The notes beneath the pieces are model-generated. The model was not told where the DNA came from. It searched no databases and saw only the letters and a program-made list of their open reading frames with translations. From Escherichia phage ekra, in sequence record MN850644.1: 64,000 bases of DNA. One strand, given 5' to 3'. Both the position numbers and the translations under genes were made by a program. Shown one piece after another: positions 1 through 11,548 of this stretch (position 1 is the stretch's first letter; the number at the start of each line of letters is the position of its first letter).

Positions 1-1465
1 CTTCTAACAAGCCTTCTAAACACTCTTCTAACAAGCCTTCTTAATAACCTATACAATCACCTTAACCATCCCTCTACACCCTCTTAGAAGCTCCTATACA
101 CCTCTTAATCTCTAGGTTAGCTATGTGACTCTCTATAGGTGTTCACTAGATATTACTAAGCCTCTATATAGACTGTTTTAACAAACTTAACAGGAATATC
201 TTTACAGACCTTATCTCACAAGGTCTAACACGGCACTAACAAGGTATCTTATAAGCCTGTTTCTACCTGTATTTTAGAAAGACTGTATAGGTAATTATTC
301 AGAATCTTAAAATTTTTATAAAATAGGACTATCAAGTCATTTTTTAGGGTCTTTGAAGGAACTGAAAAATATCTGTAGAAGATGTATATCTGCTTGGTAG
401 CCCTTAACAACTCCCTTACAAGTACTTTGCAAAATTTTAAAATATCCTTAACAATCTCTTAACAGTTCTCACATCTTCTTAACATCTCTTCAAAGGTCTT
501 AACAGATTCTTAACAGAACTAACAAGGGTGTAACAAATCTCTAACAAGTGCTACATAGACTTTACAGAATCTTAACAGATTGCTAACAAGAGCTAACAAG
601 TTAATTTTAAAGGATTATTTTGTAGGGATTGGTAACAATACCAATTAAGATAATTAACAAGTCTCTAACAAGTGTTTAATCTTTTTAACAAGCTGTTAAC
701 ATGGTCACTACTCTTTTCTTATCGTTCCCTTTCCTTTCTTAGTGATTCCTTAAACATACCTCTTAAAAGCTCTCTATAGCTCTTTATAAGCTCTTTTAAG
801 TCTCTTCCTAGTAGTTACACCCCAACTGTACAGATACCTCTTTATAGGGCTTTACAGGAGCTTTTAAGGCTATGTCAAAGACTCTTACAAGGCTTTTACG
901 TGGTCTTAACAAAGATTTAACAAGGGGCTAACAAGTTGCTAACAAGTGCCTTAAAAGCATAACTATGTAGGGATTGTTAAGAAATTGTTAAGAAAATGTT
1001 AAGGGGGCTAGCATTTACGTAACTTTTAAGCTACTTCAAAGTAACTTTAAAGCCCCTATAACATACTTTTCAGTTACTATCAAGGGGGTTGTTTAGTAGT
1101 TCACAAGATAGCTAACGAGATAATAAAGCTTACACCCTTATAAGATTCTTTTAAGGCTCTGTGAAGCTTTATAAAGGGCTTTTAAGGGTGAGGTAATGCA
1201 ATCCCTTAAGTTAGGTTAAAAAGGCCGTTATAGGGCTTTATATGGCGTTTAAATGGGTTGCCCCCTTTCTGGGGTTATTGGCTTATGTTTAAGGGCTTAT
1301 TAATAAGGCCAATTAATTGACTTAGTAAAAGGCTGTAAAGTTATTGCTTTTAAGGTCTGATAAGATTCTAGAAAGGAAAGGGAAAGGGATTGTATAAGGA
1401 TTCGATAGGATGCAAAAAGCCCCATTTAAGGGGCTGTATAAAGGTATCTGGGCTATTTAGCCCCG
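1..1465. repeat. Non-coding field of about 30 dispersed short repeats, consensus (C/T)TAACA(A/G), in both orientations, plus degenerate copies of the CTTTATAAG/AAGCTCTTTATA motif
   Basis: Read directly: cttctaacaagcc twice in first 40 nt, runs such as cttaacagattcttaacagaactaacaagg (about 497-530), ttaacaaggggctaacaagttgctaacaagtg (about 915-950), inverted copies tgttaag x3 near 975-1005; no ORF of 60 aa or more. Confidence 0.7.
1417..1437 (-). terminator. Hairpin (agcccc / aggggct) followed by T-run on minus strand, downstream of early gene cluster
   Basis: Inverted repeat aagccccatttaaggggct; minus-strand reading gives stem-loop then tttttgc. Confidence 0.45.
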
Positions 1466-1474
1466 TTGCGGCGT

Positions 1475-1723
1475 TTAGTTAGTGCCTTCTTTGTCGTAGT
1501 ACAGGGAGACAATTTTTTCGCCCCAATAGTGATAAGTGTAACCATCTTTAAGGGCTTCTTGTTTTGTTTCTTTCCAGAATTCATCAGAGGGGTTGTAGTC
1601 ACTGATGGTCTGGCTGATAAGGCCTTTCACCATTTCAAAGGCGTTATCAGTACCTACAAGGTCAAATTTAACGTCCAGAGAGTAGAAGCCAAATTCGTTA
1701 ACAGTTGCGCGGATAGTAGCCAT
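1475..1723 (-). CDS. hypothetical early protein (82 aa)
   Basis: ORF; start preceded by conserved leader/RBS cassette (type A hairpin at about 1745-1790). Confidence 0.5.
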   Translation of the reverse strand: MATIRATVNEFGFYSLDVKFDLVGTDNAFEMVKGLISQTISDYNPSDEFWKETKQEALKDGYTYHYWGEKIVSLYYDKEGTN

Positions 1724-1943
1724 TTTTGAATCTCCAGTTTAGGATTTTATTTAGTGGGGATGTTATTGCCTCCCCGTTGATTAGTAATTTACTTGTTTTG
1801 ATAGCTGATTGCAAGCAATTTTTTAAGCTTATCTATAAAGAATCTTTTAAGTGAATCCCTTTTAGATAAACCCCCTCGAACAAATTTACCAATGTCAAGG
1901 GGTATTGTCAATACTTTTTAAAAAGTTTTTTGTAAGTTATTGA

Positions 1944-2285
1944 TTAACTGATGAATATTTTTTCAGGTTTTACGTAGCTGATACGTTGGTTTTTTAGCAG
2001 GTCATCCCAGATTAGCGCGGCAATATGAGAATAACCGGATTCACGTAGAAGCTTCATTGTTTTACTTCTCGTTTCGAAGCGGCTCGCATAGTACTCACTG
2101 TTCAGAGTCGTTTTCTTCCCTTCATTGTCTACATGAATAATCTGCATCACTTGAAAGGGGCTGACATCCTCGCCTTTGTTCCACTGCTCAAAGTATTTTA
2201 GGCACTGCATAGGTGACATCTTATCACTTACTTGAGTTGACCAAGATGAATCTTCTTTATCGGTAATTACAGTTACATAAGCCAT
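1944..2285 (-). CDS. hypothetical early protein (113 aa)
   Basis: ORF; conserved cassette immediately upstream (2286-2365). Confidence 0.5.
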   Translation of the reverse strand: MAYVTVITDKEDSSWSTQVSDKMSPMQCLKYFEQWNKGEDVSPFQVMQIIHVDNEGKKTTLNSEYYASRFETRSKTMKLLRESGYSHIAALIWDDLLKNQRISYVKPEKIFIS

Positions 2286-2376
2286 TTTAGAATCTCCTAG
2301 TTTAAGGACTTTATTTAGTGGGGAAGGTCATTCCCTCCCCGTTGATTGACAATTTACAGACTTTTATCAGGCTTGT

Positions 2377-2610
2377 CTAGTCTTTTTCAATGATAATTTC
2401 ATATTGACCATCGACACTGTCAAAATAGACGCCGTCTTCATCTTCTGTCTTAAAGTAGCATTGAATATCATCACTGGCGGGATAGTCTTGTCTTGCTATC
2501 TGGCAAACTTGAATAGCATTTTCTTTACTCCCTGTAAACTCCTCAAGCCCTTTAAAATCACATGAATGACCATTACATATAGAAAGGATAAGATAAACGG
2601 TTGTAAGCAT
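2377..2610 (-). CDS. hypothetical small protein (77 aa), 4 Cys
   Basis: ORF with RBS-like aagagg upstream and GC hairpin at 2628-2645. Confidence 0.45.
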   Translation of the reverse strand: MLTTVYLILSICNGHSCDFKGLEEFTGSKENAIQVCQIARQDYPASDDIQCYFKTEDEDGVYFDSVDGQYEIIIEKD

Positions 2611-2676
2611 GATTTAAGCCTCTTAAAAGCCCCTACAAGGGGCTAATCAGTGTTTATAAGGTGATTGCATAGGTTT

Positions 2677-3219
2677 TTAGAAAAAGCTCTTTAAATCCTC
2701 TTCTGCAATGTTTCCTGTTAGTGTATCCATGATGTCACAAAAAACCTGAATACTGTCTGACTGTTGAACACTTTTAGCAAGAAGCTCCAGAGACTCATCA
2801 AGATAGTTTAAATTTGGGTTATCCAATGAAGGAAGACAAAAAGGTGAATACATAGCGTTAAACTCTGTTGTATAGACCTTTTTAATCCAATTTACATCAA
2901 AGTACTCTGTAAAACTTGCTACACTCGACATATTATCACAAGAATAATCATCATTTAGCTCATCCTCTGGAATATCGAGTTCTAAGATAACAATATTTTG
3001 AGTCTTCATCTGAAAAGCTGCGGTGATAGTGGCATTGCCTAGAGCTTGCTGAATGCCCTCTGATGCTATTTCTTCCTCATCGTCGCCATAGATTTTATTT
3101 TCTGGATACACGTAAAAATTGCCGTCCATATCCGAACAATTCCATGCGCCTGATGGTTTATCACCGTTATTAATCAGGTTGATAAAGTTTTCTTGAGTAG
3201 TACCGTGAAAGCATTTCAT
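2677..3219 (-). CDS. hypothetical highly acidic protein (180 aa)
   Basis: ORF; D/E-rich (DDEEEIASEG, DIPEDELNDDY); conserved type B cassette upstream (3220-3304). Confidence 0.55.
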   Translation of the reverse strand: MKCFHGTTQENFINLINNGDKPSGAWNCSDMDGNFYVYPENKIYGDDEEEIASEGIQQALGNATITAAFQMKTQNIVILELDIPEDELNDDYSCDNMSSVASFTEYFDVNWIKKVYTTEFNAMYSPFCLPSLDNPNLNYLDESLELLAKSVQQSDSIQVFCDIMDTLTGNIAEEDLKSFF

Positions 3220-3304
3220 TTTTGAATCTCCAGTTTAGGATTTAGTGGTAAAGCTCTTTATCTGGGGCTTAAGATATCAACTTTTAAGCCCCCTGTAAAG
3301 TACT

Positions 3305-3508
3305 TTATCCGTTAATTTTGACAACCTTTAAAACCGCGCGATAACCTAAGCAATAGGAATCACCGAAAAGCGTCCGACCCATGAAAGAATCCTCTTTGAT
3401 ATCCTTTGCAGTGACAGTTTTTTCTACGCCGTGGGAGAGGACTACATCACCGACTTTAATATCTTTGATGTGTGCAGTCTCGATAGATACACCGTTAATA
3501 ATAGCCAT
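3305..3508 (-). CDS. hypothetical small protein (67 aa)
   Basis: ORF; type A cassette upstream. Confidence 0.5.
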   Translation of the reverse strand: MAIINGVSIETAHIKDIKVGDVVLSHGVEKTVTAKDIKEDSFMGRTLFGDSYCLGYRAVLKVVKING

Positions 3509-3611
3509 TTTAGAATCTCCTAGTTTAAGGGTTTTATGTAGTGGGGATGGTCATTCCCTCCCCGTTGATGTGTAATTTAATATATATAAAAACCAGTGTC
3601 AACAAAAATTT

Positions 3612-4016
3612 TTAAAGTTCTGCATAAATTGCATCACAGATATTACGGAAGTCGTGATTTGACAAATTACGCTGCAACCAAGTGGCGAAAAAGTCAGCGA
3701 TTGCATAATTAGCATCATACTCGACGGATAGCCATACTTTAACAGCAAAACGAAACATTTTCAAATCAAGCTCCCTATTCATTACCTTAGATTTGCCTAA
3801 CATGTCGGCCATTTCATATTGTGCACCATCTAGCGTGATACCTGCTGCAACGTCAGTTAATGAGTTTTTTACGTTTTCAACGTCTAAGATAACACTTTGA
3901 ATCTTCCCGATAATGTTGTGCAATGTTTCATCGGGTGCTGATGATGTCAGAACATTAATCCGGTTAACGGTCAAACGTGCTTTTAAGATTGATAACTCAC
4001 GGTTATTAATAGCCAT
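3612..4016 (-). CDS. hypothetical protein (134 aa)
   Basis: ORF; type B cassette upstream (4017-4101). Confidence 0.5.
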   Translation of the reverse strand: MAINNRELSILKARLTVNRINVLTSSAPDETLHNIIGKIQSVILDVENVKNSLTDVAAGITLDGAQYEMADMLGKSKVMNRELDLKMFRFAVKVWLSVEYDANYAIADFFATWLQRNLSNHDFRNICDAIYAEL

Positions 4017-4101
4017 TTTAGAATCTCCAATTTAGGATTGAGTGATAAAGCTCTTTATCTGGGGCTTACTTTATCGAACTATAAGCCCCTTGTAAAGTAC
4101 T

Positions 4102-4374
4102 TTATACTAAATGCAGCTTTTTACCTTTTACCATGATGTAACTTGTTGCGCTATTGCTGTGCACATCTTGATAAATTCTGCGCAAACGTCCTTTGTAGTA
4201 TACTTTCCAACTAGTTGGAATCTTTTTACCGTATCCTGTAGCAGTTTTTTGCAGCCCTGCAAGTTGCCAATTCAGAATATGTTGTTCGGCTTGTAAATCC
4301 TCGAAGTGCATTACACCGTTCACATAGTGGCGCAGGGTTACGTTTAAGGTGCGACCGTTGTTAGTAGTATACAT
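4102..4374 (-). CDS. hypothetical protein (90 aa)
   Basis: ORF; type A cassette upstream. Confidence 0.5.
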   Translation of the reverse strand: MYTTNNGRTLNVTLRHYVNGVMHFEDLQAEQHILNWQLAGLQKTATGYGKKIPTSWKVYYKGRLRRIYQDVHSNSATSYIMVKGKKLHLV

Positions 4375-4462
4375 TTTGAATCTCCTAGTTTAAGGGTTTT
4401 ATGTAGTGGGGAGGTCATTTCCTCCCCGTTGATTAGTAATTTACTTGCTTTAAAAACCAAAA

Positions 4463-4795
4463 TCAAGAGGAATTTTTTCGTTTGCTCAATTCTTGAACAA
4501 TTACAGCGTGATAGTCTTTCAAGTCACTGATGTTTAAAGCATTTATCAGAGAATTATAATCATCAACTAACTGAAAATCATCTTTGAAGATGTCACTTAT
4601 CTGATAGGTTTTCGCTTTATATCTGAAGCTCATTTCTAACCGTTTTAATTGTTCATCACTCAAACGCCCTAGAAAGCTCTCTACAAGGCTATTTCTAACC
4701 TGCTGCGTGATTGCCTTACTTGCCAGATTATAGGCTTTATATGCCTTATAAAGTGCTATAATGGCAATGATTGCAGTGATACCAGTCATTAACAT
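4463..4795 (-). CDS. hypothetical protein with N-terminal transmembrane helix (110 aa)
   Basis: ORF; hydrophobic N-terminus ITAIIAIIALY; 7-nt overlap with upstream ORF. Confidence 0.5.
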   Translation of the reverse strand: MLMTGITAIIAIIALYKAYKAYNLASKAITQQVRNSLVESFLGRLSDEQLKRLEMSFRYKAKTYQISDIFKDDFQLVDDYNSLINALNISDLKDYHAVIVQELSKRKNSS

Positions 4796-5085
4796 GGTAT
4801 TTCCTCTTTACGTGATACTTTACCATTTACAGTTATCTCATAGGATTCTAATAAATCGCTTTTAGACTTTACAGGACTTTTAAAAGTATCATCATAAATA
4901 TTAACTTGCAATACAGGTTTTTTATATTCCCTGCAACTATTCCATAAGCAAATCACTACACGACGGCCTTTTATTTTGCCGTGTAACCATTCCATAACAT
5001 CATGACTATTTCTTGATGTCTCGATAAAATCAATTTTGTTGAGTAACTTGCTTAGATTTTCACGAACTTTATTCGATAATTTCAT
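4789..5085 (-). CDS. hypothetical protein (98 aa)
   Basis: ORF; type B cassette upstream (5086-5170). Confidence 0.5.
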   Translation of the reverse strand: MKLSNKVRENLSKLLNKIDFIETSRNSHDVMEWLHGKIKGRRVVICLWNSCREYKKPVLQVNIYDDTFKSPVKSKSDLLESYEITVNGKVSRKEEIPC

Positions 5086-5277
5086 TTTAGAATCTCCAGT
5101 TTAGGATTTAGTGGTAAAGCTCTTTATCTGGGGCTATCTTACCAGCTTGATAACCCCGTGTAAAGAAATCTATTTAGTCCTTAAAGATATTCATCACTGA
5201 GTCTTTTAATGATTCCAAACGTTCTAATACTTCAGATTCTGCGTCTGAGTTGTTCACTTCTTCTTTTAGCCTGTCAT

Positions 5278-5685
5278 CTAAATCATCGCCGTCACTATAG
5301 CACCAATCAAAAGCGTAACCGATATAAAACTGTCTAAAATTGTTTGACCATTTGCATCGACAACTTTCGCGGCAAGGTTGTATTCTGAAGCCTCTAAATC
5401 TCTTTCTAGTTCTTTCTGTAAGCTTGTGTAAGCCTCTTTTGATGGATTTTCCCGGCCTTGTTTTGCATAGTCACTTGAAAGCTGTTTAAGGCTGTAATGC
5501 AAAGGGATTGCATATTTAAAATCATTACGCTGACAGTTGGGATTTTTAACAGTCACACCGCCTTGATGGTCGTTTGTAAACTCCCAATTATCGAGATTAT
5601 GGCTTGCTTCGTAGCAATTTACCGCTTCGTAAATGATGGAAAATTTTTCTTTTACAACTTCAAAGGTAGCGTCTACAGTTTTCAT
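5278..5685 (-). CDS. hypothetical protein (135 aa)
   Basis: ORF; type B cassette upstream (5686-5780). Confidence 0.5.
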   Translation of the reverse strand: MKTVDATFEVVKEKFSIIYEAVNCYEASHNLDNWEFTNDHQGGVTVKNPNCQRNDFKYAIPLHYSLKQLSSDYAKQGRENPSKEAYTSLQKELERDLEASEYNLAAKVVDANGQTILDSFISVTLLIGAIVTAMI

Positions 5686-5780
5686 TTTTGAATCTCCTAG
5701 TTTAAGGACTTGATTTAGTGGTAAAGCTCTTTATCTGGGGCTTAAGATACCAACTTTTAAGCCCCTTGTAAAGTACTTTA

Positions 5781-6038
5781 TCAGATTAAATTGCCAGTTA
5801 ATGATAAGTGCATTTTATAGCCTTTTTTGGTAAACACGTTCACTTTACCGAGTGATTTTACACCTTTAAAAAGGTTGTTTGAATTACGTTTTAAGGTTAA
5901 TTGCTTATCCGACTTCACGTTCCACCTTACAGCGGATTGTTTTCCGTTGTCAACCACTTTCCCGCCTAACTTTTTCGCCATGATGCGAGCGTCATCACGA
6001 GTTTTTGCAGGAATTACAACGTTTTTGATAATAGCCAT
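5781..6038 (-). CDS. hypothetical basic protein (85 aa)
   Basis: ORF; K/R-rich; type B cassette upstream. Confidence 0.5.
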   Translation of the reverse strand: MAIIKNVVIPAKTRDDARIMAKKLGGKVVDNGKQSAVRWNVKSDKQLTLKRNSNNLFKGVKSLGKVNVFTKKGYKMHLSLTGNLI

Positions 6039-6123
6039 TTTTGAATCTCCAATTTAGGATTTAGTGGTAAAGCTCTTTATCTGGGGCTTACTTTATCGAA
6101 CTATAAGCCCCTTGTAAAGTACT

Positions 6124-6507
6124 TTATTTGTTAATTTTGAAGATAGTTACATAACCATCGCTGCCGATGATTTGTGATGCTCCAGCTTTTTCTACTTGAT
6201 AGCCCATATTTTCAAGATGGTAAACAGCATCATCATAACCATATGCGCCGCCCTGATAACGTCTCTTATCACATCTTACTAATACCTTTCCACGTCCTGC
6301 CAGTGCATTTAGTACGGCTTTTTCACTTGAAAGTGTACCATCTAACATGGTTGCCGTGTAATGGTTGATTCTATTCCCGTTTACATCATACTTAAAATTG
6401 AATGCGTGAACAACGATAATGTTACCTTTAAAATTTTCATCAAGTGACTTCTCCAGTGCGTTGCGAAAGTTGTCTTTGTTGATGAATTTAGGTGCACGAT
6501 ATGCCAT
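6124..6507 (-). CDS. hypothetical protein (127 aa)
   Basis: ORF; type B cassette upstream (6508-6597). Confidence 0.5.
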   Translation of the reverse strand: MAYRAPKFINKDNFRNALEKSLDENFKGNIIVVHAFNFKYDVNGNRINHYTATMLDGTLSSEKAVLNALAGRGKVLVRCDKRRYQGGAYGYDDAVYHLENMGYQVEKAGASQIIGSDGYVTIFKINK

Positions 6508-6597
6508 TTTTGAATCTCCTAGTTTAAGGGTTAATTTGGTAAAGCTCTTTATCTGGGGCTTACTTTATCGAACTATAAGCCCCTTGTAAAGTACTTT

Positions 6598-6819
6598 TTA
6601 TTTATCGTAGTAGTAAATTGCTGTCTGTCTCGTAAATTTTTTAGTATTTCTTGTAAGGTAGCAATTAGAGTTTATAGCTGTTTCTACATAGTTGCAATAG
6701 TCAGCTTCTGATATTCTGGACCATACGCCACAGATTTGCATGTAAAAACGTTTTGCCTTTGTGTTAACGTTAGTTGTAACCATCAATTCGCGACTGTAAA
6801 GCATTATTTCGCGCTCCAT
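6598..6819 (-). CDS. hypothetical protein (73 aa)
   Basis: ORF; 16-nt overlap with upstream ORF. Confidence 0.45.
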   Translation of the reverse strand: MEREIMLYSRELMVTTNVNTKAKRFYMQICGVWSRISEADYCNYVETAINSNCYLTRNTKKFTRQTAIYYYDK

Positions 6820-6992
6820 TTCTCAAAGAGTTCAGCAGGGAAACGTTCGCTATACCCTTTTAAGGAAAAAGTATTATCTTTGTGGATAGCTTCCACCTGA
6901 TAAACCTTATAAGAGCGTATAGTTAGCATTTTGTAAGAGTATTCGTGCTTAATGTTAACCTCATCGCCAACTTTAATTTTTCTTGATGCCAT
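6804..6992 (-). CDS. hypothetical protein (62 aa), first gene of the early cluster
   Basis: ORF; type A cassette upstream (6993-7060). Confidence 0.45.
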   Translation of the reverse strand: MASRKIKVGDEVNIKHEYSYKMLTIRSYKVYQVEAIHKDNTFSLKGYSERFPAELFEKWSAK

Positions 6993-7205
6993 TTTTGAAT
7001 CTCCAGTTTAGGATTTTATTTAGTGGGGAAGGTCATTCCCTCCCCGTTGATGTAAATATTAGATAACCACGTTCAAAGAGTCAATAAAAATTTTAAAAAT
7101 ATTTTTGGCAAAACTGTAATGAAACGGGTGCGCAAGACTACCACAAAACAGAACGCAAATCAAGAATTATTTTTCAATCCGCTACAAATTTTTCTCTTGA
7201 CTTTT

Positions 7206-7240
7206 GGGGAGAGGGGGAGTAAGAGGGGGAGAGGGGTTGG
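7206..7240 (+). other. Canonical G-quadruplex-forming purine tract (C-rich on the transcribed minus strand)
   Basis: ggggagagggggagtaagagggggagaggggttggg: five G3-5 runs with short loops, in an otherwise AT-rich genome. Confidence 0.5.
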
Positions 7241-7249
7241 GCTGGCTGT

Positions 7250-7450
7250 CTATAAAAACCTACCTGCACAATTCTAAAATGATTTTTCTTGCCCGACCTG
7301 AGCGGGGTCTGCACGTTTTGAAAATGAAAAAGCTCTTTGGAGATTACCTGCACAGTTTGAAAATGAATTTTCTCTTTGGAGTTCAAAATTCTCTCTACAG
7401 ATTTCTCTACAGAACTCTACCTGCACAATTCTAAAATGAAAAAGCCCTCC
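7250..7450. repeat. Four copies of a roughly 20-bp repeat, acctgcaca(a/g)tt(c/t)t(a/g)aaaatga, in the non-coding region upstream of the early cluster
   Basis: Copies read at about 7261, 7301, 7347 and 7420; associated motif ctctttggag twice. Confidence 0.5.
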
Positions 7451-7512
7451 TTACCTGAAAAATTTACCAGATAAGAAAGGCTTAGGCTATTGTGAATATA
7501 CTACAGAGTTTC

Positions 7513-8298
7513 TTAGTTCTTTGCGTCTAAGAAGGTAACTTCTGGTGAAGAGAAGATTGCCTCGATATCCTCATCAGTTCTTGCATAGATATAAGCTTCT
7601 GCATCACTACCAAATGTTACAGCAATTCTGTGATTGCTCTTTGACAGGTGGGTAACTAGAGCGTTACTTAGAGACATCTTTTCAACCGGAGGGTTACTTT
7701 GATGTATCTTACCTTTTCTTCGTCTGAAGAGGGTAACTGCGTTATCTGTGAACACTGCTACACCTGCAAAGTATTCTGGTTCACAGTAGTTCTTCCAACC
7801 TGAGCGTAACTTGTGGTACATCTCGCCTTCATAGACATACAGATAAACATCTACACTCTTCATCACCTGATTGATGATAACTGTGACAGCTTGAGGGTCA
7901 AGTCCACCGATACCTGCACCAATCATAGGTAAACCAACTTTCTTCAACTGATTAACTTCACAGTATCTGTTAAGCTGTTTCAAAGATGACTCTAAAGCAC
8001 TGTATCGGGCATCTTTACCAGTCTTAAGCTGAGTGTAAAGGTTAGCTATACGACCTTGTTTTAAGCGTGCTACAGAGAAATTACCTAGTAAATTCTCACA
8101 GGGTTTGTGACCTATACCACCTGCATAGAGATAAACTTCTGTATCGGTCTCATATGCTTTTGGGTAAAGTTTAGAAATCTTGTCAGCGATACCTGCGCCC
8201 ATTAGGTTCATGCAGTTACAACCATGACCAATGATGTCAAACTTACCTTTATCAAATGCAGCAAAGATATCACCATTGATGATTTTTACAATACCCAT
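7513..8298 (-). CDS. Macrodomain protein, TARG1/DarG-like ADP-ribose-processing fold, with about 110-aa C-terminal extension
   Basis: N-terminal NGDIF...IIGHGCNCMNLMGAGIA matches the HCxS/N...MGxGIA signature of TARG1-type macrodomains; second glycine-rich stretch MIGAGIGGLD. Confidence 0.6.
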   Translation of the reverse strand: MGIVKIINGDIFAAFDKGKFDIIGHGCNCMNLMGAGIADKISKLYPKAYETDTEVYLYAGGIGHKPCENLLGNFSVARLKQGRIANLYTQLKTGKDARYSALESSLKQLNRYCEVNQLKKVGLPMIGAGIGGLDPQAVTVIINQVMKSVDVYLYVYEGEMYHKLRSGWKNYCEPEYFAGVAVFTDNAVTLFRRRKGKIHQSNPPVEKMSLSNALVTHLSKSNHRIAVTFGSDAEAYIYARTDEDIEAIFSSPEVTFLDAKN

Positions 8299-8499
8299 TT
8301 AGCATCTCTCCCAAGATTCTTTATCTTCTGAAGGTTTTACACGTTGCCCCTCATGGTCTACCCAGATGCACCCACAACCTTCACAGATTACTGGCATTGC
8401 ATAACCAGCTTTAAAATCATCTTCAGTGATAAGACCTTTTAAGTCACCTGTATCACGTCCGAACATTTCGATAGAACAGTCTTTACAGAAGTCAGCCAT
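8299..8499 (-). CDS. hypothetical small Cys-rich (zinc-ribbon-like) protein; likely start at internal Met (MADFCKDCS)
   Basis: CKDC ... CEGCGC pairs; ATGgcTGA start/stop overlap with upstream ORF. Confidence 0.4.
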   Translation of the reverse strand: MADFCKDCSIEMFGRDTGDLKGLITEDDFKAGYAMPVICEGCGCIWVDHEGQRVKPSEDKESWERC

Positions 8500-8719
8500 G
8501 AATAATTGCCTCTTGAATGATGATACCTTTACCACAACGACTTTTAAAGTCTTCCAATGGTTCAGAGATGAAGCCACGTAAGCAGTCAGTGAATACTAAG
8601 TTCTTCCTGTAAGCTATCACATCATTTGCTGTAAATGGGATGACCTCATTTCGTCCAATGAATACTGCTGACCTTATAAGTTTTCGTGTCTTTTTATCTC
8701 TGGCTAGTATTACTTTCAT
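8492..8719 (-). CDS. hypothetical protein (75 aa)
   Basis: ORF in operon context. Confidence 0.4.
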   Translation of the reverse strand: MKVILARDKKTRKLIRSAVFIGRNEVIPFTANDVIAYRKNLVFTDCLRGFISEPLEDFKSRCGKGIIIQEAIIHG

Positions 8720-9020
8720 AGTTTACCTTCTCAGTTAGTTCATATAAATCAACATGCTCAATACTGTCAATGTTGATATCAATCTTTTTGAAACGCTCCA
8801 TCACTTCGTTATCAGTCATCCATATCAGACACCAATGATTCTGGATGGATTCTTCAAGAAGGTCAACACAATCTTTAAAGGTTTTTGTATCACTTCTTGT
8901 TCCTACTACTGCGATTGTTCCATATATCCACTTACCATTGCCATAAGATACTTGTGCTACGCCAACTTCTTTACCTTTCTCATAGTAAACGGCTACAAAA
9001 TCTCTTCCATTAATCTGCAT
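8694..9020 (-). CDS. hypothetical protein (108 aa)
   Basis: ORF. Confidence 0.45.
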   Translation of the reverse strand: MQINGRDFVAVYYEKGKEVGVAQVSYGNGKWIYGTIAVVGTRSDTKTFKDCVDLLEESIQNHWCLIWMTDNEVMERFKKIDINIDSIEHVDLYELTEKVNYESNTSQR

Positions 9021-10326: not shown

Positions 10327-11022
10327 TCAATGTTTAACTAACATGGTTTTAATGTGTGGAAGGATTCTGTTCACCTTCTGCACATTCTTCTCTGTGTCTT
10401 CTATAAAACATACTATATTAAAGTAAGGCAGGATGCAAGACTGAATCATCCTCACTTTCAAACTTTCTGCACTTATAGAGTTAGTTCCAAAACCACGCAT
10501 AAAAAGCATGTAGTCATGCTCTATGTTGTGCCTTAAAAACATCTCAGTAGGTATTCTCTGAGATTCACCTCTCGCTGTCAAGAGTCCAATGGCAGCATGA
10601 TTAGCAATTGCATCAATAATACTAAAGACATACGTTGGTTTTGCTCTTACAGAGTCAAGAAGATTAGTGTACTGTGAGAATGACCCATCAGTCAATTCCG
10701 TTGAGCAATCTTCGTGATTAAAATTTGTAAGAACACCATCAATATCTGCTAAGATGAGGTTACCTTTTTCTACAAGGTCTTTATTGACTATGACTAAGCT
10801 ATCACGACTTACACCTATAGTTTGTCCAGTCTCTTTATCTACAACATTCACAATTGGCTCTGATGTGTGGAACTCTTCGAGTGAACATACAACTTCTCTT
10901 GCAGTGTCTTCAAAATCCCTACACTGTTCTGGAGTCCATACACAGGAATCAAGACCTAACTCATGAGGATGTAAGTCGTAAGCATGACACAGTACTTCAT
11001 CAGACTTTTTTAATTTTTTCAT
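10327..11022 (-). CDS. HAD-superfamily-like hydrolase/phosphatase candidate
   Basis: Motif ILADIDGVL resembles HAD motif I (DxDGT/V); otherwise unassigned. Confidence 0.35.
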   Translation of the reverse strand: MKKLKKSDEVLCHAYDLHPHELGLDSCVWTPEQCRDFEDTAREVVCSLEEFHTSEPIVNVVDKETGQTIGVSRDSLVIVNKDLVEKGNLILADIDGVLTNFNHEDCSTELTDGSFSQYTNLLDSVRAKPTYVFSIIDAIANHAAIGLLTARGESQRIPTEMFLRHNIEHDYMLFMRGFGTNSISAESLKVRMIQSCILPYFNIVCFIEDTEKNVQKVNRILPHIKTMLVKH

Positions 11023-11548
11023 GGTTTACCTTAGAAATGTTTGTTGCAAATTCACATTGAGCAATGACTTTCATGTTGTTATAGACATCTTGAGAATATT
11101 TCTTAGCTTTAGGGATTTTGTACGAATACCCAGCATTATATGATGCTAAAACTTTTTGTAAAGTCTTCTTTGACTTTGGCTGACCATGCACCTTTGTCCA
11201 AAACTCAAGCTCTTTGTGAGTTTCCTTCGCAGCATAGTTAAAGTCTTTTAAGAGTTTCTTTTTAGCCACATTAGGACTAATTTTGTTACGCTTTACAACA
11301 GTCTTCAAGTGATTCTGGAAAATACCATAATCATGTGTCTTTTTATTCTCTACCTTCAGACCTAACTCTGACTCTTGTAAGGCTATAGCAGCTAGAGTGA
11401 TACCCCAACCTTTACCCATGTTGTTCTCACCATACTGGTAAGCTTTTAACATGTTTACTTTTTGGCTAATTGATAGCTCTGGGCAGTCAACTGCATAAGA
11501 TAAGTGTGCTGTAAACATTAAGCACAAACCTAGAATCAATTTCTTCAT
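11000..11548 (-). CDS. Lytic transglycosylase (SLT domain) with N-terminal signal peptide; endolysin candidate
   Basis: MKKLILGLCLMFTAHLSYA signal; SLT motifs AIALQESELG (catalytic Glu-Ser), GIFQ, SYNAGYSY. Confidence 0.65.
   Translation of the reverse strand: MKKLILGLCLMFTAHLSYAVDCPELSISQKVNMLKAYQYGENNMGKGWGITLAAIALQESELGLKVENKKTHDYGIFQNHLKTVVKRNKISPNVAKKKLLKDFNYAAKETHKELEFWTKVHGQPKSKKTLQKVLASYNAGYSYKIPKAKKYSQDVYNNMKVIAQCEFATNISKVNHEKIKKV

What the first reader, a model, noticed from the sequence alone, without database searches (positions are those of the whole stretch)
1724..7060. Reiterated hairpin-plus-leader cassette punctuating 14 small early genes, in two stem families with covariation
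Between almost every small minus-strand ORF there is an 80-100-bp unit. Read on the coding (minus) strand it is: stop codon of the upstream gene, a hairpin, then a conserved leader CACTAAAT(A/C)AAGTCCTTAAACTAGGAGATTC(T/A)AAA-ATG. Type A hairpin (GGGGAGGGAATGACCTTCCCC) occurs about 5 times (near 1745, 2310, 3540, 4400, 7020); type B (GGGGCTTAA-loop-TTAAGCCCC, with variants GGGGCTTA...TAAGCCCC and GGGGCTATC...GATAACCCC) about 6 times (near 3250, 4045, 5110, 5720, 6070, 6535). The hairpins lack a T-run, so they are not classical intrinsic terminators; they resemble RNase III-type processing sites or protein-recognised hairpins, and the identical leader suggests uniform, strong translation initiation.
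Basis: seen in the sequence. Interest (0 to 1): 0.65.

Follow-up and report, generated by a model that had tools for sequence, protein, structure and literature searches.

The report
Repeated promoter–hairpin–leader cassettes, Felix O1-like phage
In the early-gene region of a Felix O1-like phage, eleven near-identical ~95-bp cassettes each give a small gene its own host-type promoter, an RNA hairpin and a standard ribosome-binding leader, and they also act as crossover points for swapping genes; this is the same design as the "PeSL" cassettes known from T4-like phages.

Summary
Exactly 11 cassettes with the leader GGAGATTC(W)AAA(A)ATG lie on the minus strand between 1721 and 7084: 5 type A and 6 type B, with none elsewhere in the 64 kb. 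The window is a Felixounavirus.

- Type A: -35, 17 bp, TAnnnT, then 10 nt, then the GGGGAGG hairpin. The hairpin therefore sits 3-4 nt from the predicted mRNA 5' end.
- Type B: the hairpin lies inside the promoter, TTTACA-17 bp-TAnnnT. This holds in 217 of 218 copies across Ounavirinae, with 14 different -10 hexamers and TGn in 51%.

The stems covary (G-C to U-A at four positions) and use U·G wobbles that pair only on the coding strand, so the hairpin works as RNA. In read-through RNA the type B flanks add an 11-12-bp lower stem. That gives a ~21-bp interrupted helix with the dimensions of a T7 RNase III site. None of the hairpins has a U-tract.

Synteny breakpoints between relatives fall inside cassettes (21 of 26), and one window cassette is a visible chimera.

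Best reading: PeSL-like composite promoter/stem-loop/leader cassettes, so far described only in T4-like phages. Promoter activity, RNA processing and stabilisation are inferred, not shown.

The parts
6990..7084 (-). Cassette 1, type A: -35 TTGACT 7079-7084; -10 TAATAT 7056-7061; hairpin GGGGAGGGAATGACCTTCCCC 7025-7045; SD GGAG 7001-7004; ATG 6990-6992 (gene 6804..6992)
6505..6598 (-). Cassette 2, type B: lower-stem 5' strand 6587-6598; -35 TTTACA 6585-6590; hairpin 6555-6583, with -10 TAAAGT 6562-6567 in its loop/3' arm; lower-stem 3' strand TAAAGAGCTTTA 6540-6551; SD 6516-6519; ATG 6505-6507
6036..6126 (-). Cassette 3, type B: -35 6113-6118; hairpin 6083-6111; -10 TAAAGT 6090-6095; lower stem 6115-6126 with 6068-6079; SD 6047-6050; ATG 6036-6038
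   Evidence: (MFE -24.3 kcal/mol, z -3.3)
5683..5780 (-). Cassette 4, type B: -35 5767-5772; hairpin GGGGCTTAA..TTAAGCCCC 5737-5765; -10 TGgTATCTT 5744-5749; lower stem 5769-5780 with 5722-5733; SD 5694-5697; ATG 5683-5685
5083..5172 (-). Cassette 5, type B: -35 5159-5164; hairpin GGGGTTATC..GATAGCCCC 5130-5157; -10 TGgTAAGAT 5136-5141; lower stem 5161-5172 with 5115-5126; SD 5094-5097; ATG 5083-5085
4372..4466 (-). Cassette 6, type A: -35 TTGATT 4461-4466; -10 TAAATT 4438-4443; hairpin GGGGAGGAAATGACCTCCCC 4408-4427; SD 4382-4385; ATG 4372-4374
4014..4104 (-). Cassette 7, type B: -35 4091-4096; hairpin 4061-4089; -10 TAAAGT 4068-4073; lower stem 4093-4104 with 4046-4057; SD 4025-4028; ATG 4014-4016
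3506..3602 (-). Cassette 8, type A: -35 TTGACA 3597-3602; -10 TAAATT 3574-3579; hairpin 3543-3563 (one G×A mismatch); SD 3517-3520; ATG 3506-3508
3217..3307 (-). Cassette 9, type B: -35 3294-3299; hairpin 3264-3292; -10 TGaTATCTT 3271-3276; lower stem 3296-3307 with 3249-3260; SD 3228-3231; ATG 3217-3219
   Evidence: (z -3.9)
2283..2379 (-). Cassette 10, type A: -35 TAGACA 2374-2379; -10 TAAATT 2351-2356; hairpin 2320-2340; SD 2294-2297; ATG 2283-2285
1721..1814 (-). Cassette 11, type A and chimeric: -35 TTGCAA 1809-1814; -10 TAAATT 1786-1791; weakened hairpin GGGGAGGCAATAACATCCCC 1756-1775; SD 1732-1735; ATG 1721-1723. The promoter half equals the Felix O1 cassette before ORF22; the hairpin and gene equal the cassette before ORF23.
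7442..7483 (-). Canonical intrinsic terminator (Felix O1 t13) that closes the upstream transcription unit and marks the start of the array
   Evidence: Table 2 of PMC3185647
1418..1435 (-). Canonical intrinsic terminator (AGCCCCTTAAATGGGGCT + TTTTT; Felix O1 t23) that ends the array

Best explanation
The units are composite regulatory cassettes of the PeSL type ('promoter-early stem-loop'), here in a Felix O1-like myovirus (Ounavirinae). Each ~95-bp cassette carries four things: an A/T-rich upstream stretch, a host sigma-70 promoter, a G/C-clamped RNA hairpin, and a standard 5' leader with GGAG/AGGAG, 8 nt and ATG. Eleven of the 14 small genes therefore have their own early promoter and the same ribosome-binding site. 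The whole array lies between two true terminators (7442-7483 and 1418-1435).

Type A. The promoter comes first. The hairpin begins 10 nt after the -10, which is 3-4 nt after the predicted start. It would be the 5'-terminal stem-loop of the mRNA, most likely protecting it from 5'-end-dependent decay. This step is inferred.

Type B.
- The hairpin occupies the promoter spacer and discriminator. The -35 TTTACA abuts the 5' arm, and the -10 lies in the loop and 3' arm.
- The cassette's own transcript is predicted to start just after the stem, at AGAUAAAG, and so lacks the hairpin.
- The hairpin exists only in RNA that reads through from upstream promoters. There it stacks on an 11-12-bp lower stem formed by TAAAGTACTTTA (stop codon/-35 region) and TAAAGAGCTTTA (+3 to +14). 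The result is a ~21-bp helix with a 3x3 internal loop.
- I infer that this structure ends or processes upstream messages. The options are RNase III-type cleavage, a barrier to 3' exonucleases, or weak attenuation. Each gene's mRNA would then be defined separately.

Independently of expression, the ~100-bp near-identical cassettes are substrates for homologous recombination. That recombination inserts, deletes and swaps gene-sized modules between related phages.

Shown here: the anatomy, the promoter sequence signature, stem covariation, strand specificity and the breakpoint pattern. Inferred: promoter activity, start sites and what the hairpins do.
For: Identity. The window matches 255 Felixounavirus-type phage records at about 90% identity.

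Type A promoters. All 27 copies extracted by the regex from 12 loci have -35 (TTGACA/TTGACT/TTGACG/TTGCAA/TAGACA), a 17-bp spacer in 26 of them (one copy needs an 18-bp register), and TAnnnT. Spacers are unrelated between paralogues. The distance to the hairpin is fixed at 10 nt.

Type B promoters.
- 217 of 218 copies in 61 loci have TAnnnT at 17 bp (205) or 18 bp (12) after TTTACA.
- There are 14 different hexamers, and 51% are preceded by TGn.
- The T and A of the hexamer sit in the hairpin loop, where the structure imposes no constraint.
- The promoter scan independently flagged these sites.

Hairpin.
- The upper stem is 98.4% paired. Three positions change on both sides, and no shuffle or slid control reaches the observed values.
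- Kolesnikvirus copies change GGGG/CCCC to GGTG/CACC with no mixed forms.
- U·G wobble occurs in 26 of 41 copies at pair 5, so the stem pairs only on the coding strand.
- Stem energies are -11 to -14 kcal/mol, except cassette 11 at -7.1.

Lower stem.
- The MFE folds include it, with z-scores of -2.2 to -3.9.
- It is 95.8% paired.
- One pair switches G-C (92) to U-A (18) against 11 unpaired. Fisher p = 1e-14, not corrected for phylogeny, and the switch appears across four hairpin classes and two flank haplotypes.

No terminators lie between the cassettes.

Recombination.
- 21 of 26 internal synteny breakpoints against five Felixounavirus genomes lie in cassettes covering 17% of the region (p = 2e-12).
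- Cassette 11 is a chimera of two Felix O1 cassettes, with ORF22 missing.
- Phage LF82P5 lacks everything between cassettes 2 and 9.

Context and precedent.
- All 10 cassette-preceded genes tested belong to PHROGs of unknown function.
- Felix O1 ORFs 13, 16, 20, 21 and 22 peak at 5 min after infection.
[quoted passage not shown] Promoter and attenuator activities were shown there by lacZ fusions (PMC2839356).
Against: - No transcript data exist for any Felix O1-like phage that I could find. Promoter firing, start sites and read-through are predictions.
- Cassette copies are related and exchange sequence. Covariation counts therefore overstate the number of independent events, and the lower stem rests on a single covarying pair. 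Its two strands could instead be conserved as -35/UP element and initial transcribed region.
- The hairpins lack the U-tract expected if they were the terminators that the PeSL authors proposed.
- BLAST segments necessarily extend into shared cassette sequence. 'Breakpoint in cassette' partly restates that whole genes are the units of exchange.
- Cassettes 8 and 11 have mismatched stems, so a perfect hairpin is not essential.
- The -10 hexamers (TAAAGT, TATCTT, TAAATT) are only 3-4 of 6 matches to consensus.
Confidence: 0.72

Rival explanations
1. The array is one or a few long early transcripts. The hairpins are RNase III-type (or protein-recognised) processing sites that cut it into monocistronic mRNAs, as in the T7 early region. 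The promoter-like hexamers are incidental.
For: With its flanks, type B folds into 11-12 bp + a 3x3 internal loop + 9 bp. The dimensions resemble the T7 R0.5 fold of 8 bp + internal loop + 10 bp. The lower-stem pair covaries. There is no U-tract and there are no internal terminators.
Against: - TAnnnT at exactly 17-18 bp from TTTACA in 217 of 218 copies, with variable middle bases and frequent TGn, is not explained by a processing site.
- Type A has a full promoter with unrelated spacers upstream of the hairpin.
- Type A has only 7-8 bp and no lower stem, which is too short for RNase III (established knowledge: about 20 bp are needed).
- Processing of type B is compatible with the best explanation. 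Only the 'no promoters' part is disfavoured.
Confidence: 0.1
2. The hairpins are transcription terminators or attenuators, the function the PeSL authors assigned to T4-type stem-loops. Each would stop or dampen transcription from upstream so that each gene depends on its own promoter.
For: An RB49 PeSL stem-loop reduced lacZ expression as strongly as rrnB T1 (PMC2839356). The type B hairpin directly follows the upstream stop codon. Stems are stable at -12 to -14 kcal/mol.
Against: - No U-tract. All type B stems are followed by AGAUAAAG and type A stems by ACUAAAU.
- None was flagged by the terminator scan, whereas the true terminators at both ends of the array were.
- Type B loops are 10-11 nt, unusually large for intrinsic terminators.
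- Type A hairpins lie downstream of their own promoter.
Confidence: 0.12
3. The conserved palindromes TAAAG-NN-CTTTA on either side of the type B promoter (over the -35 and at +3 to +14) are DNA operators for a phage repressor that shuts off early genes. The hairpin would then be secondary.
For: TAAAGTACTTTA is a perfect 12-bp palindrome, and both sites share half-sites. How Felix O1 times its transcription is unknown (PMC3185647).
Against: - In 18 unique cassettes the left half of site 1 (G to T) and the right half of site 2 (C to A) change together. This breaks the symmetry of each site but keeps complementarity between the sites.
- G·U-type substitutions are tolerated.
- Type A cassettes lack the palindromes.
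Confidence: 0.06

Closest known systems
PeSLs (promoter-early stem-loops) of T4-type phages RB49/phi1, PST/T4 and nt-1/KVP40 (Arbiol et al. 2010, PMC2839356; Comeau et al. 2014, PMC4122927)
   Same: [quoted passage not shown]
- A sigma-70 early promoter with an A/T-rich upstream region.
- A G-run/C-run stem-loop with G·T pairs, whose position relative to the promoter differs between subclasses (inside the spacer, over the -10, or downstream of the -10).
- A Shine-Dalgarno sequence at the 3' end.
- Clustering among small genes of unknown function.
- Indels and replacements between close relatives that end in the cassettes.
   Different: - A different phage subfamily (Ounavirinae) and no sequence homology.
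- Only two tightly conserved subclasses.
- A much more uniform leader.
- The type A hairpin lies after the predicted start site, so it is part of the mRNA.
- Type B has an additional covarying lower stem built from the -35 region and the initial transcribed region.
- No U-tract.
- Promoter, terminator and mini-circle activities have not been tested here.
RNase III processing sites of the T7 early region (R0.3, R0.5, R1, R1.1, R1.3)
   Same: They are intercistronic in an early-gene array. The architecture is lower stem + internal loop + upper stem of about 20 bp in total (T7 R0.5 fold; type B fold). In T7 the cut leaves a protective 3' hairpin on the upstream mRNA (established knowledge).
   Different: - T7 sites are not overlaid on promoters.
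- There is no sequence similarity.
- The type B lower stem is almost all A-U.
- Type A has no lower stem.
- Cleavage has not been tested.
5'-terminal stabilising stem-loops of E. coli mRNAs (ompA 5' UTR; Emory, Bouvet and Belasco 1992; from my own knowledge)
   Same: The type A hairpin is predicted to begin 3-4 nt from the 5' end. That is within the distance at which such stem-loops protect against RNase E/RppH-dependent decay.
   Different: The start site is only predicted. Type B primary transcripts have essentially no 5' hairpin (0 to -3.7 kcal/mol).
Direct repeats listed in the Felix O1 genome paper (PMC3185647) and the 14-bp 'repeat_region' features in the Citrobacter phage Mordin record
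   Same: These are the same sequences. The 57-bp repeat CTTTACATGGGGCTTAAAAGTCTGTAAAGTAAGCCCCAGATAAAGAGCTTTACCACT is type B. The 39-bp repeat TTGACACTGG...ATCAAC is a type A promoter. The Mordin repeats lie just upstream of ribosome-binding sites.
   Different: They were reported only as repeats. No promoter, hairpin, leader or recombination role was assigned, and none of these promoters is among the five predicted in that paper.

Membership tests
PeSL (promoter-early stem-loop) cassette | Repeated intergenic motif, many copies, concentrated among small non-essential/ORFan genes | tested here: met
   11 copies in 5.4 kb and none in the other 58 kb. All 10 cassette-preceded genes tested fall in PHROGs of unknown function.
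PeSL (promoter-early stem-loop) cassette | Contains a sigma-70-like early promoter (-35, ~17 bp, -10) with an A/T-rich upstream region | tested here: met
   Met by sequence signature only. Type A: 27 of 27 copies. Type B: 217 of 218 with TAnnnT at 17-18 bp. Promoter activity was not measured.
PeSL (promoter-early stem-loop) cassette | Stable stem-loop (G-run...C-run, G·T pairs allowed) placed in or next to the promoter | tested here: met
   Stems of -11 to -14 kcal/mol with covariation. Type B lies in the spacer and over the -10. Type A lies downstream of the -10.
PeSL (promoter-early stem-loop) cassette | Shine-Dalgarno sequence and start codon of the downstream gene at the 3' end | tested here: met
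   GGAG/AGGAG, then 8 nt, then ATG in all 11 cassettes.
PeSL (promoter-early stem-loop) cassette | Stem-loop acts as a transcription terminator/attenuator | not testable with these tools
   The sequence argues against a canonical terminator: there is no U-tract and the scan flagged none.
PeSL (promoter-early stem-loop) cassette | Indels and replacements between close relatives end in the cassettes; recombination between cassettes occurs | tested here: met
   21 of 26 breakpoints lie in cassettes. Cassette 11 is chimeric. Mini-circles are not testable here.
PeSL (promoter-early stem-loop) cassette | Host phage is a T4-like myovirus (the group in which the class was defined) | tested here: not met
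   The window is a Felixounavirus, subfamily Ounavirinae. The class is defined by function, not homology, so this makes the case a new host group rather than an exclusion.
E. coli RNase III processing signal | About two helical turns (~20 bp) of dsRNA, possibly interrupted by an internal loop | tested here: inconclusive
   Type B with flanks gives 11-12 + 9 bp with a 3x3 loop. Type A has 7-8 bp only, so it does not meet the feature.
E. coli RNase III processing signal | Mapped cleavage dependent on rnc; absence of antideterminant base pairs | not testable with these tools
   This needs in vitro cleavage or rnc- transcript mapping.
Intrinsic (rho-independent) terminator | G/C-rich hairpin immediately followed by a U-tract | tested here: not met
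   The stems are followed by AGAUAAAG (type B) or ACUAAAU (type A). The scan reports only 7442-7483 and 1418-1435 on this strand.
5'-terminal mRNA-stabilising stem-loop | Hairpin within about 4 nt of the transcript 5' end | tested here: inconclusive
   The type A hairpin starts exactly 10 nt after the -10 in 27 of 27 copies. That predicts 3-4 unpaired nt, but the start site has not been mapped.
Rfam RNA families | Match to any curated covariance model | tested here: not met
   No matches at E <= 1 in window 1-9000.

The most novel reading that the evidence does not exclude
Type B is a dual-coded element. The same ~75 bp is a sigma-70 promoter in DNA and an RNase III-type processing helix in read-through RNA. 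The -35 region and the initial transcribed region form the two strands of its lower stem. The 3' side of its internal loop (AGA) coincides with the predicted transcription start. Messages made by initiation and by processing would then carry the same 5' end and leader, and each upstream message would be left with a protective 3' hairpin. That would give uniform, position-independent expression of freely shuffled genes.
Probability: 0.15. Interest if true: 0.6.

Novelty: new member of a known kind. Interest (0 to 1): 0.4.

Why it matters
- How Felix O1-like phages start and time transcription has been explicitly open since the 2010 genome paper. These cassettes supply eleven concrete early promoters, plus one hairpin-less promoter-like site at 1883-1911. 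None of them is among the five promoters predicted in that paper. They also give a testable model for how the early messages are shaped.
- PeSL-type 'plug-and-play' gene cassettes are not peculiar to T4-like phages. They occur in a second myovirus lineage spanning at least four genera. This supports the idea that repeated promoter/hairpin modules are a general way for virulent phages to shuffle small accessory genes, probably host-takeover or anti-defence genes.
- Felix O1-type phages are used for Salmonella and E. coli biocontrol and in phage engineering. The cassettes are ready-made insertion points and expression signals.

Tried and rejected
- RegB-type cleavage of the GGAG leaders. Erwinia phage Panisse annotates a 'RegB-like endoribonuclease'. 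Its homologue in the window is ORF 11000..11548 (44.6% identity), whose only Pfam match is a weak, sub-threshold SLT lytic-transglycosylase hit (E 0.0012, 18.9 bits against a cutoff of 21.3). No RegB was found among the ORFs tested. Dropped.
- A small 5' hairpin, GAUAAA-GAGM-UUUAUC, on type B primary transcripts. It shows no covariation and is 84% paired. Its energy is 0 kcal/mol in the major variant. Not supported.
- DNA cruciform or plus-strand structure. The U·G wobbles become C·A mismatches on the other strand, so this is disfavoured.
- N4-type hairpin promoters for a virion RNA polymerase. The sigma-70 signature explains the data, the loops are 5-11 nt, and Felix O1 encodes no RNA polymerase (PMC3185647). 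Rejected.
- Known RNA families. Rfam gave nothing.
- Literature searches for transcript mapping in Felix O1-like phages, or for any earlier description of these cassettes, found only the 'direct repeat' listing.
- A first MAFFT alignment (A1) put the 28-nt hairpin class out of register. I replaced it with a loop-trimmed, gapless alignment (A2).

Full report
**What the window is.** Region 1400-7600 matches 255 phage records at about 90% identity. Almost all are Escherichia, Salmonella or Shigella Felix O1-like myoviruses. A more sensitive search adds Mooglevirus, Suspvirus and Erwinia Kolesnikvirus. The finding lies in the block that corresponds to Felix O1 ORFs 14-23. This block is bracketed on the coding (minus) strand by two canonical terminators, at 7442-7483 and 1418-1435. 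They correspond to t13 and t23 in Table 2 of the Felix O1 paper.

**Checking the observation.** A search for GGAGATTC-N2-6-ATG gives exactly 11 sites in 64 kb, all on the minus strand between 1721 and 7004. The stricter leader pattern has 6 exact matches against 0.00 expected.
- Five cassettes carry GGGGAGG...CCYCCCC (type A). Six carry GGGGYTWW...WWARCCCC (type B). Exact coordinates come and are listed under parts.
- Fourteen minus-strand ORFs occupy 1475-6992. Eleven are preceded by a cassette.

- In type A, a complete sigma-70 promoter lies between the upstream stop codon and the hairpin. I extracted 27 type A copies from the window and 11 related loci. All have a -35 (TTGACA/TTGACT/TTGACG/TTGCAA/TAGACA) and TAnnnT (TAAATT/TAATAT/TAAAGT/TAGTAT), with a 17-bp spacer in 26 (one copy needs an 18-bp register), then exactly 10 nt ending in (A/T)TCAAC, then the hairpin.
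- Spacer sequences are unrelated between paralogous type A cassettes. That pattern is the classical signature of a promoter rather than of a repeat.
- In type B, the invariant CTTTACA directly abuts the 5' arm of the hairpin.
- Over 61 loci, including 48 IMG/VR stretches from contigs of 53-94 kb, 217 of 218 type B copies have TAnnnT at 17 bp (205) or 18 bp (12) after TTTACA. There are 14 different hexamers, and 51% are preceded by TGn.
- The T and A of that hexamer sit in the hairpin loop, where the structure imposes no constraint. The rest of the loop varies.
- The consensus scan had flagged these sites independently.
- I conclude that each cassette contains a host-type early promoter. This rests on sequence alone; activity was not measured.

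**The hairpins are selected, and as RNA.** I used a loop-trimmed gapless alignment of 41 distinct type B copies (A2).
- The upper stem is 98.4% paired. Three positions change on both sides (U-A/A-U 28:13; A-U/U-A 28:12; C-G/A-U/U-A/U-G at the ninth pair).
- No shuffle and no slid control reaches the observed values.
- In the Erwinia phages the otherwise invariant GGGG/CCCC becomes GGTG/CACC, with no mixed forms among 61 distinct hairpins.
- Pair 5 is a U·G wobble in 26 of 41 copies. Type A has a G·U at pair 6. On the other strand these would be C·A mismatches, so the structure is read on the coding strand, that is, in the mRNA.
- Type A keeps the 5' arm GGGGAGG constant, while the loop varies freely: GAATGA, AAATGA, GAAA, GAGA, CGATAA.
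- Predicted stabilities are -11 to -14 kcal/mol. Cassette 11 is weakened to -7.1.
- No Rfam family matches.

**Where the hairpins sit relative to transcripts (inference).**
- With a start 7-8 nt after the -10, type A mRNAs begin (C)AAC-GGGGAGG. The hairpin is therefore 3-4 nt from the 5' end. From established work on ompA-type 5' stem-loops, that is close enough to protect against 5'-end-dependent decay.
- Type B primary transcripts would start at the A of CCCC-AGAUAAAG. They lack the hairpin, and their own 5' end is essentially unstructured (0 to -3.7 kcal/mol; no covariation).
- The type B hairpin therefore exists only in RNA reading through from upstream.
- There is no terminator between cassettes, so such read-through RNA is expected.

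**A lower stem in type B.**
- MFE folds of read-through RNA extend the hairpin downwards. TAAAGUACUUUA covers the upstream stop codon and the -35. It pairs with UAAAGAGCUUUA at +3 to +14, giving 11 of 12 pairs. A 3x3 internal loop (CAA/AGA) separates this from the 9-bp upper stem. z-scores are -2.2 to -3.9.
- Across relatives the lower stem is 95.8% paired, and G·U substitutions are tolerated.
- One pair switches between G-C (92 distinct cassettes) and U-A (18), with only 11 unpaired combinations. Fisher p = 1e-14. The U-A state occurs with four hairpin classes and two upstream-flank haplotypes.
- This argues for RNA pairing and against two independent DNA operators. The paired changes break the symmetry of each palindrome but keep the two palindromes complementary to each other.
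- The caveat is serious. Copies are related and recombine, the test is not phylogeny-aware, and both strands have other reasons to be conserved.
- The overall dimensions resemble a T7 early RNase III site. My fold of T7 R0.5 gives 8 bp + internal loop + 10 bp. This is a resemblance, not a test.

**What the hairpins are not.**
- They are not canonical terminators. None has a U-tract and the scan flags none, while it does find the two terminators that bracket the array.
- Type A cannot be an RNase III site. It has 7-8 bp and no lower stem.
- A RegB-type mechanism acting on the GGAG leaders was considered and dropped. The 'RegB-like' gene annotated in phage Panisse is homologous to window ORF 11000..11548. 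That ORF's only Pfam match is a weak, sub-threshold SLT lytic-transglycosylase hit.

**The cassettes are recombination joints.** I compared the region with five Felixounavirus genomes.
- 21 of 26 internal synteny breakpoints fall inside cassettes, which cover 17% of the region (binomial p = 2e-12).
- Phage LF82P5 lacks everything between cassettes 2 and 9.
- JK55 lacks the two genes between cassettes 1 and 2.
- Phage allfine, JK55, LF82P5 and Felix O1 carry an extra gene flanked by two type A cassettes where the window has one.
- That single window cassette (1721-1814) is a visible chimera. Its promoter half is identical to the Felix O1 cassette before ORF22, and its hairpin and gene match the one before ORF23. 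The crossover lies in the shared TAAATTACTAATCAACGGGGAGG.
- Part of the breakpoint enrichment is built in, because BLAST segments run into shared cassette sequence. The chimera is direct evidence.

**Comparison with what is known.**
- The closest described system is the PeSL of T4-type phages. It is a repeated unit running from the stop codon to the ATG. It has an A/T-rich region, a sigma-70 early promoter, a G-run/C-run stem-loop with G·T pairs and a Shine-Dalgarno sequence. It is concentrated among ORFans and sits at indel boundaries. [quoted passage not shown]
- Type B is exactly that arrangement.
- Type A is close to the 'downstream of the -10' subclass, but its hairpin lies after the predicted start rather than before it.
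- The Erwinia relative shows further placements: the -10 in the loop of GAGGGG-TTAAAAT-CCCCTC, and the -35 in the loop of a true terminator.
- Differences from PeSLs are the phage lineage, the lack of sequence homology, the very uniform leader, the covarying lower stem and the absence of any U-tract.
- For Felix O1-like phages I found only a listing of the 57-bp and 39-bp 'direct repeats' and unexplained 14-bp repeat features in the Mordin record. The wV8 paper, the Felixounavirus comparative paper and other genome notes do not mention them.
- The Felix O1 paper states that how transcription is regulated is unknown. Its RT-PCR places ORFs 13, 16, 20, 21 and 22 at the 5-min maximum.

**Verdict.** The element is best filed as a PeSL-like composite promoter/stem-loop/leader cassette in a new host lineage, which makes it a new member of a known kind. 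It is of moderate interest. The most novel surviving reading is that type B is both a promoter in DNA and a processing helix in read-through RNA, with the cut site coinciding with the start site. I give that reading about 15%.

Noticed in passing
window 7261-7439 (minus strand): Four copies of a 22-nt motif, TCATTTT(AGAATT/CAAACT/CAAAAC)GTGCAG(GTA/ACC), lie within 180 bp and occur nowhere else in the 64 kb (0.06 expected). They sit between terminator 7442-7483 and the first cassette promoter. They could be binding sites for a regulator or a replication protein.
   Followed up: partly
window 1-1400: About 1.4 kb without convincing ORFs is packed with short repeats of CTTGTTA(A/G)/AACAAG and related 30-47-nt families (families D5, D6, D9). 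Related phage records annotate repeat_regions in this area.
   Followed up: no
window 5173-5685 (minus strand): The homologue of Felix O1 ORF16 (170 aa) has a 1-nt deletion in a T-run. The reading frame therefore stops at 5278 (135 aa), and the C-terminal 50 residues continue in another frame. This is either a pseudogene or a sequencing error.
   Followed up: yes
window 2628-2644 (minus strand): A third kind of hairpin lies inside the array: AGCCCC-TTGT-AGGGGCT followed by UUUUAAG. It resembles the terminal terminator at 1418-1435. It sits upstream of gene 2377..2610, which has a different leader (AAGAGG). It may be a weak internal terminator.
   Followed up: no
window 1883-1911 (minus strand): An additional strong promoter-like site, TTGACA-17 bp-(TG)TAAATT, has no hairpin and no standard leader. 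It lies about 100 nt upstream of cassette 11.
   Followed up: no
all cassettes; e.g. window 7001-7012 and 2294-2307: The leader occurs in two forms, CCT-AAA(C/T)T-GGAG (93 copies) and CCTT-AAACT-AGGAG (34 copies), and they are never mixed. The paired T/A insertion lengthens a small predicted hairpin over the Shine-Dalgarno sequence from 3 to 4 bp. The two sites are only 6 nt apart, so linkage alone could explain the association.
   Followed up: partly
L006 1-499 (Erwinia phage Panisse) and window 11000-11548 (minus strand): The Panisse gene annotated 'putative T4 endoribonuclease RegB' is 44.6% identical to a window ORF. That ORF's only Pfam match is a weak, sub-threshold SLT lytic-transglycosylase hit. 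The RegB label is unsupported and possibly a misannotation.
   Followed up: yes
L001 3664-3790 (Citrobacter phage Mordin): Two type B cassettes lie in tandem. The CTTTAC of the first cassette's downstream arm runs into the CTTTACA -35 of the second. This may be a footprint of slipped recombination between cassettes.
   Followed up: no
L006 10505 upstream region (Erwinia phage Panisse): A true terminator, GGGGCTTTACAGCCCC-TTTTTT, has the -35 hexamer TTTACA in its loop and TATACT 18 bp downstream. This is a terminator/promoter composite in the same gene array.
   Followed up: no
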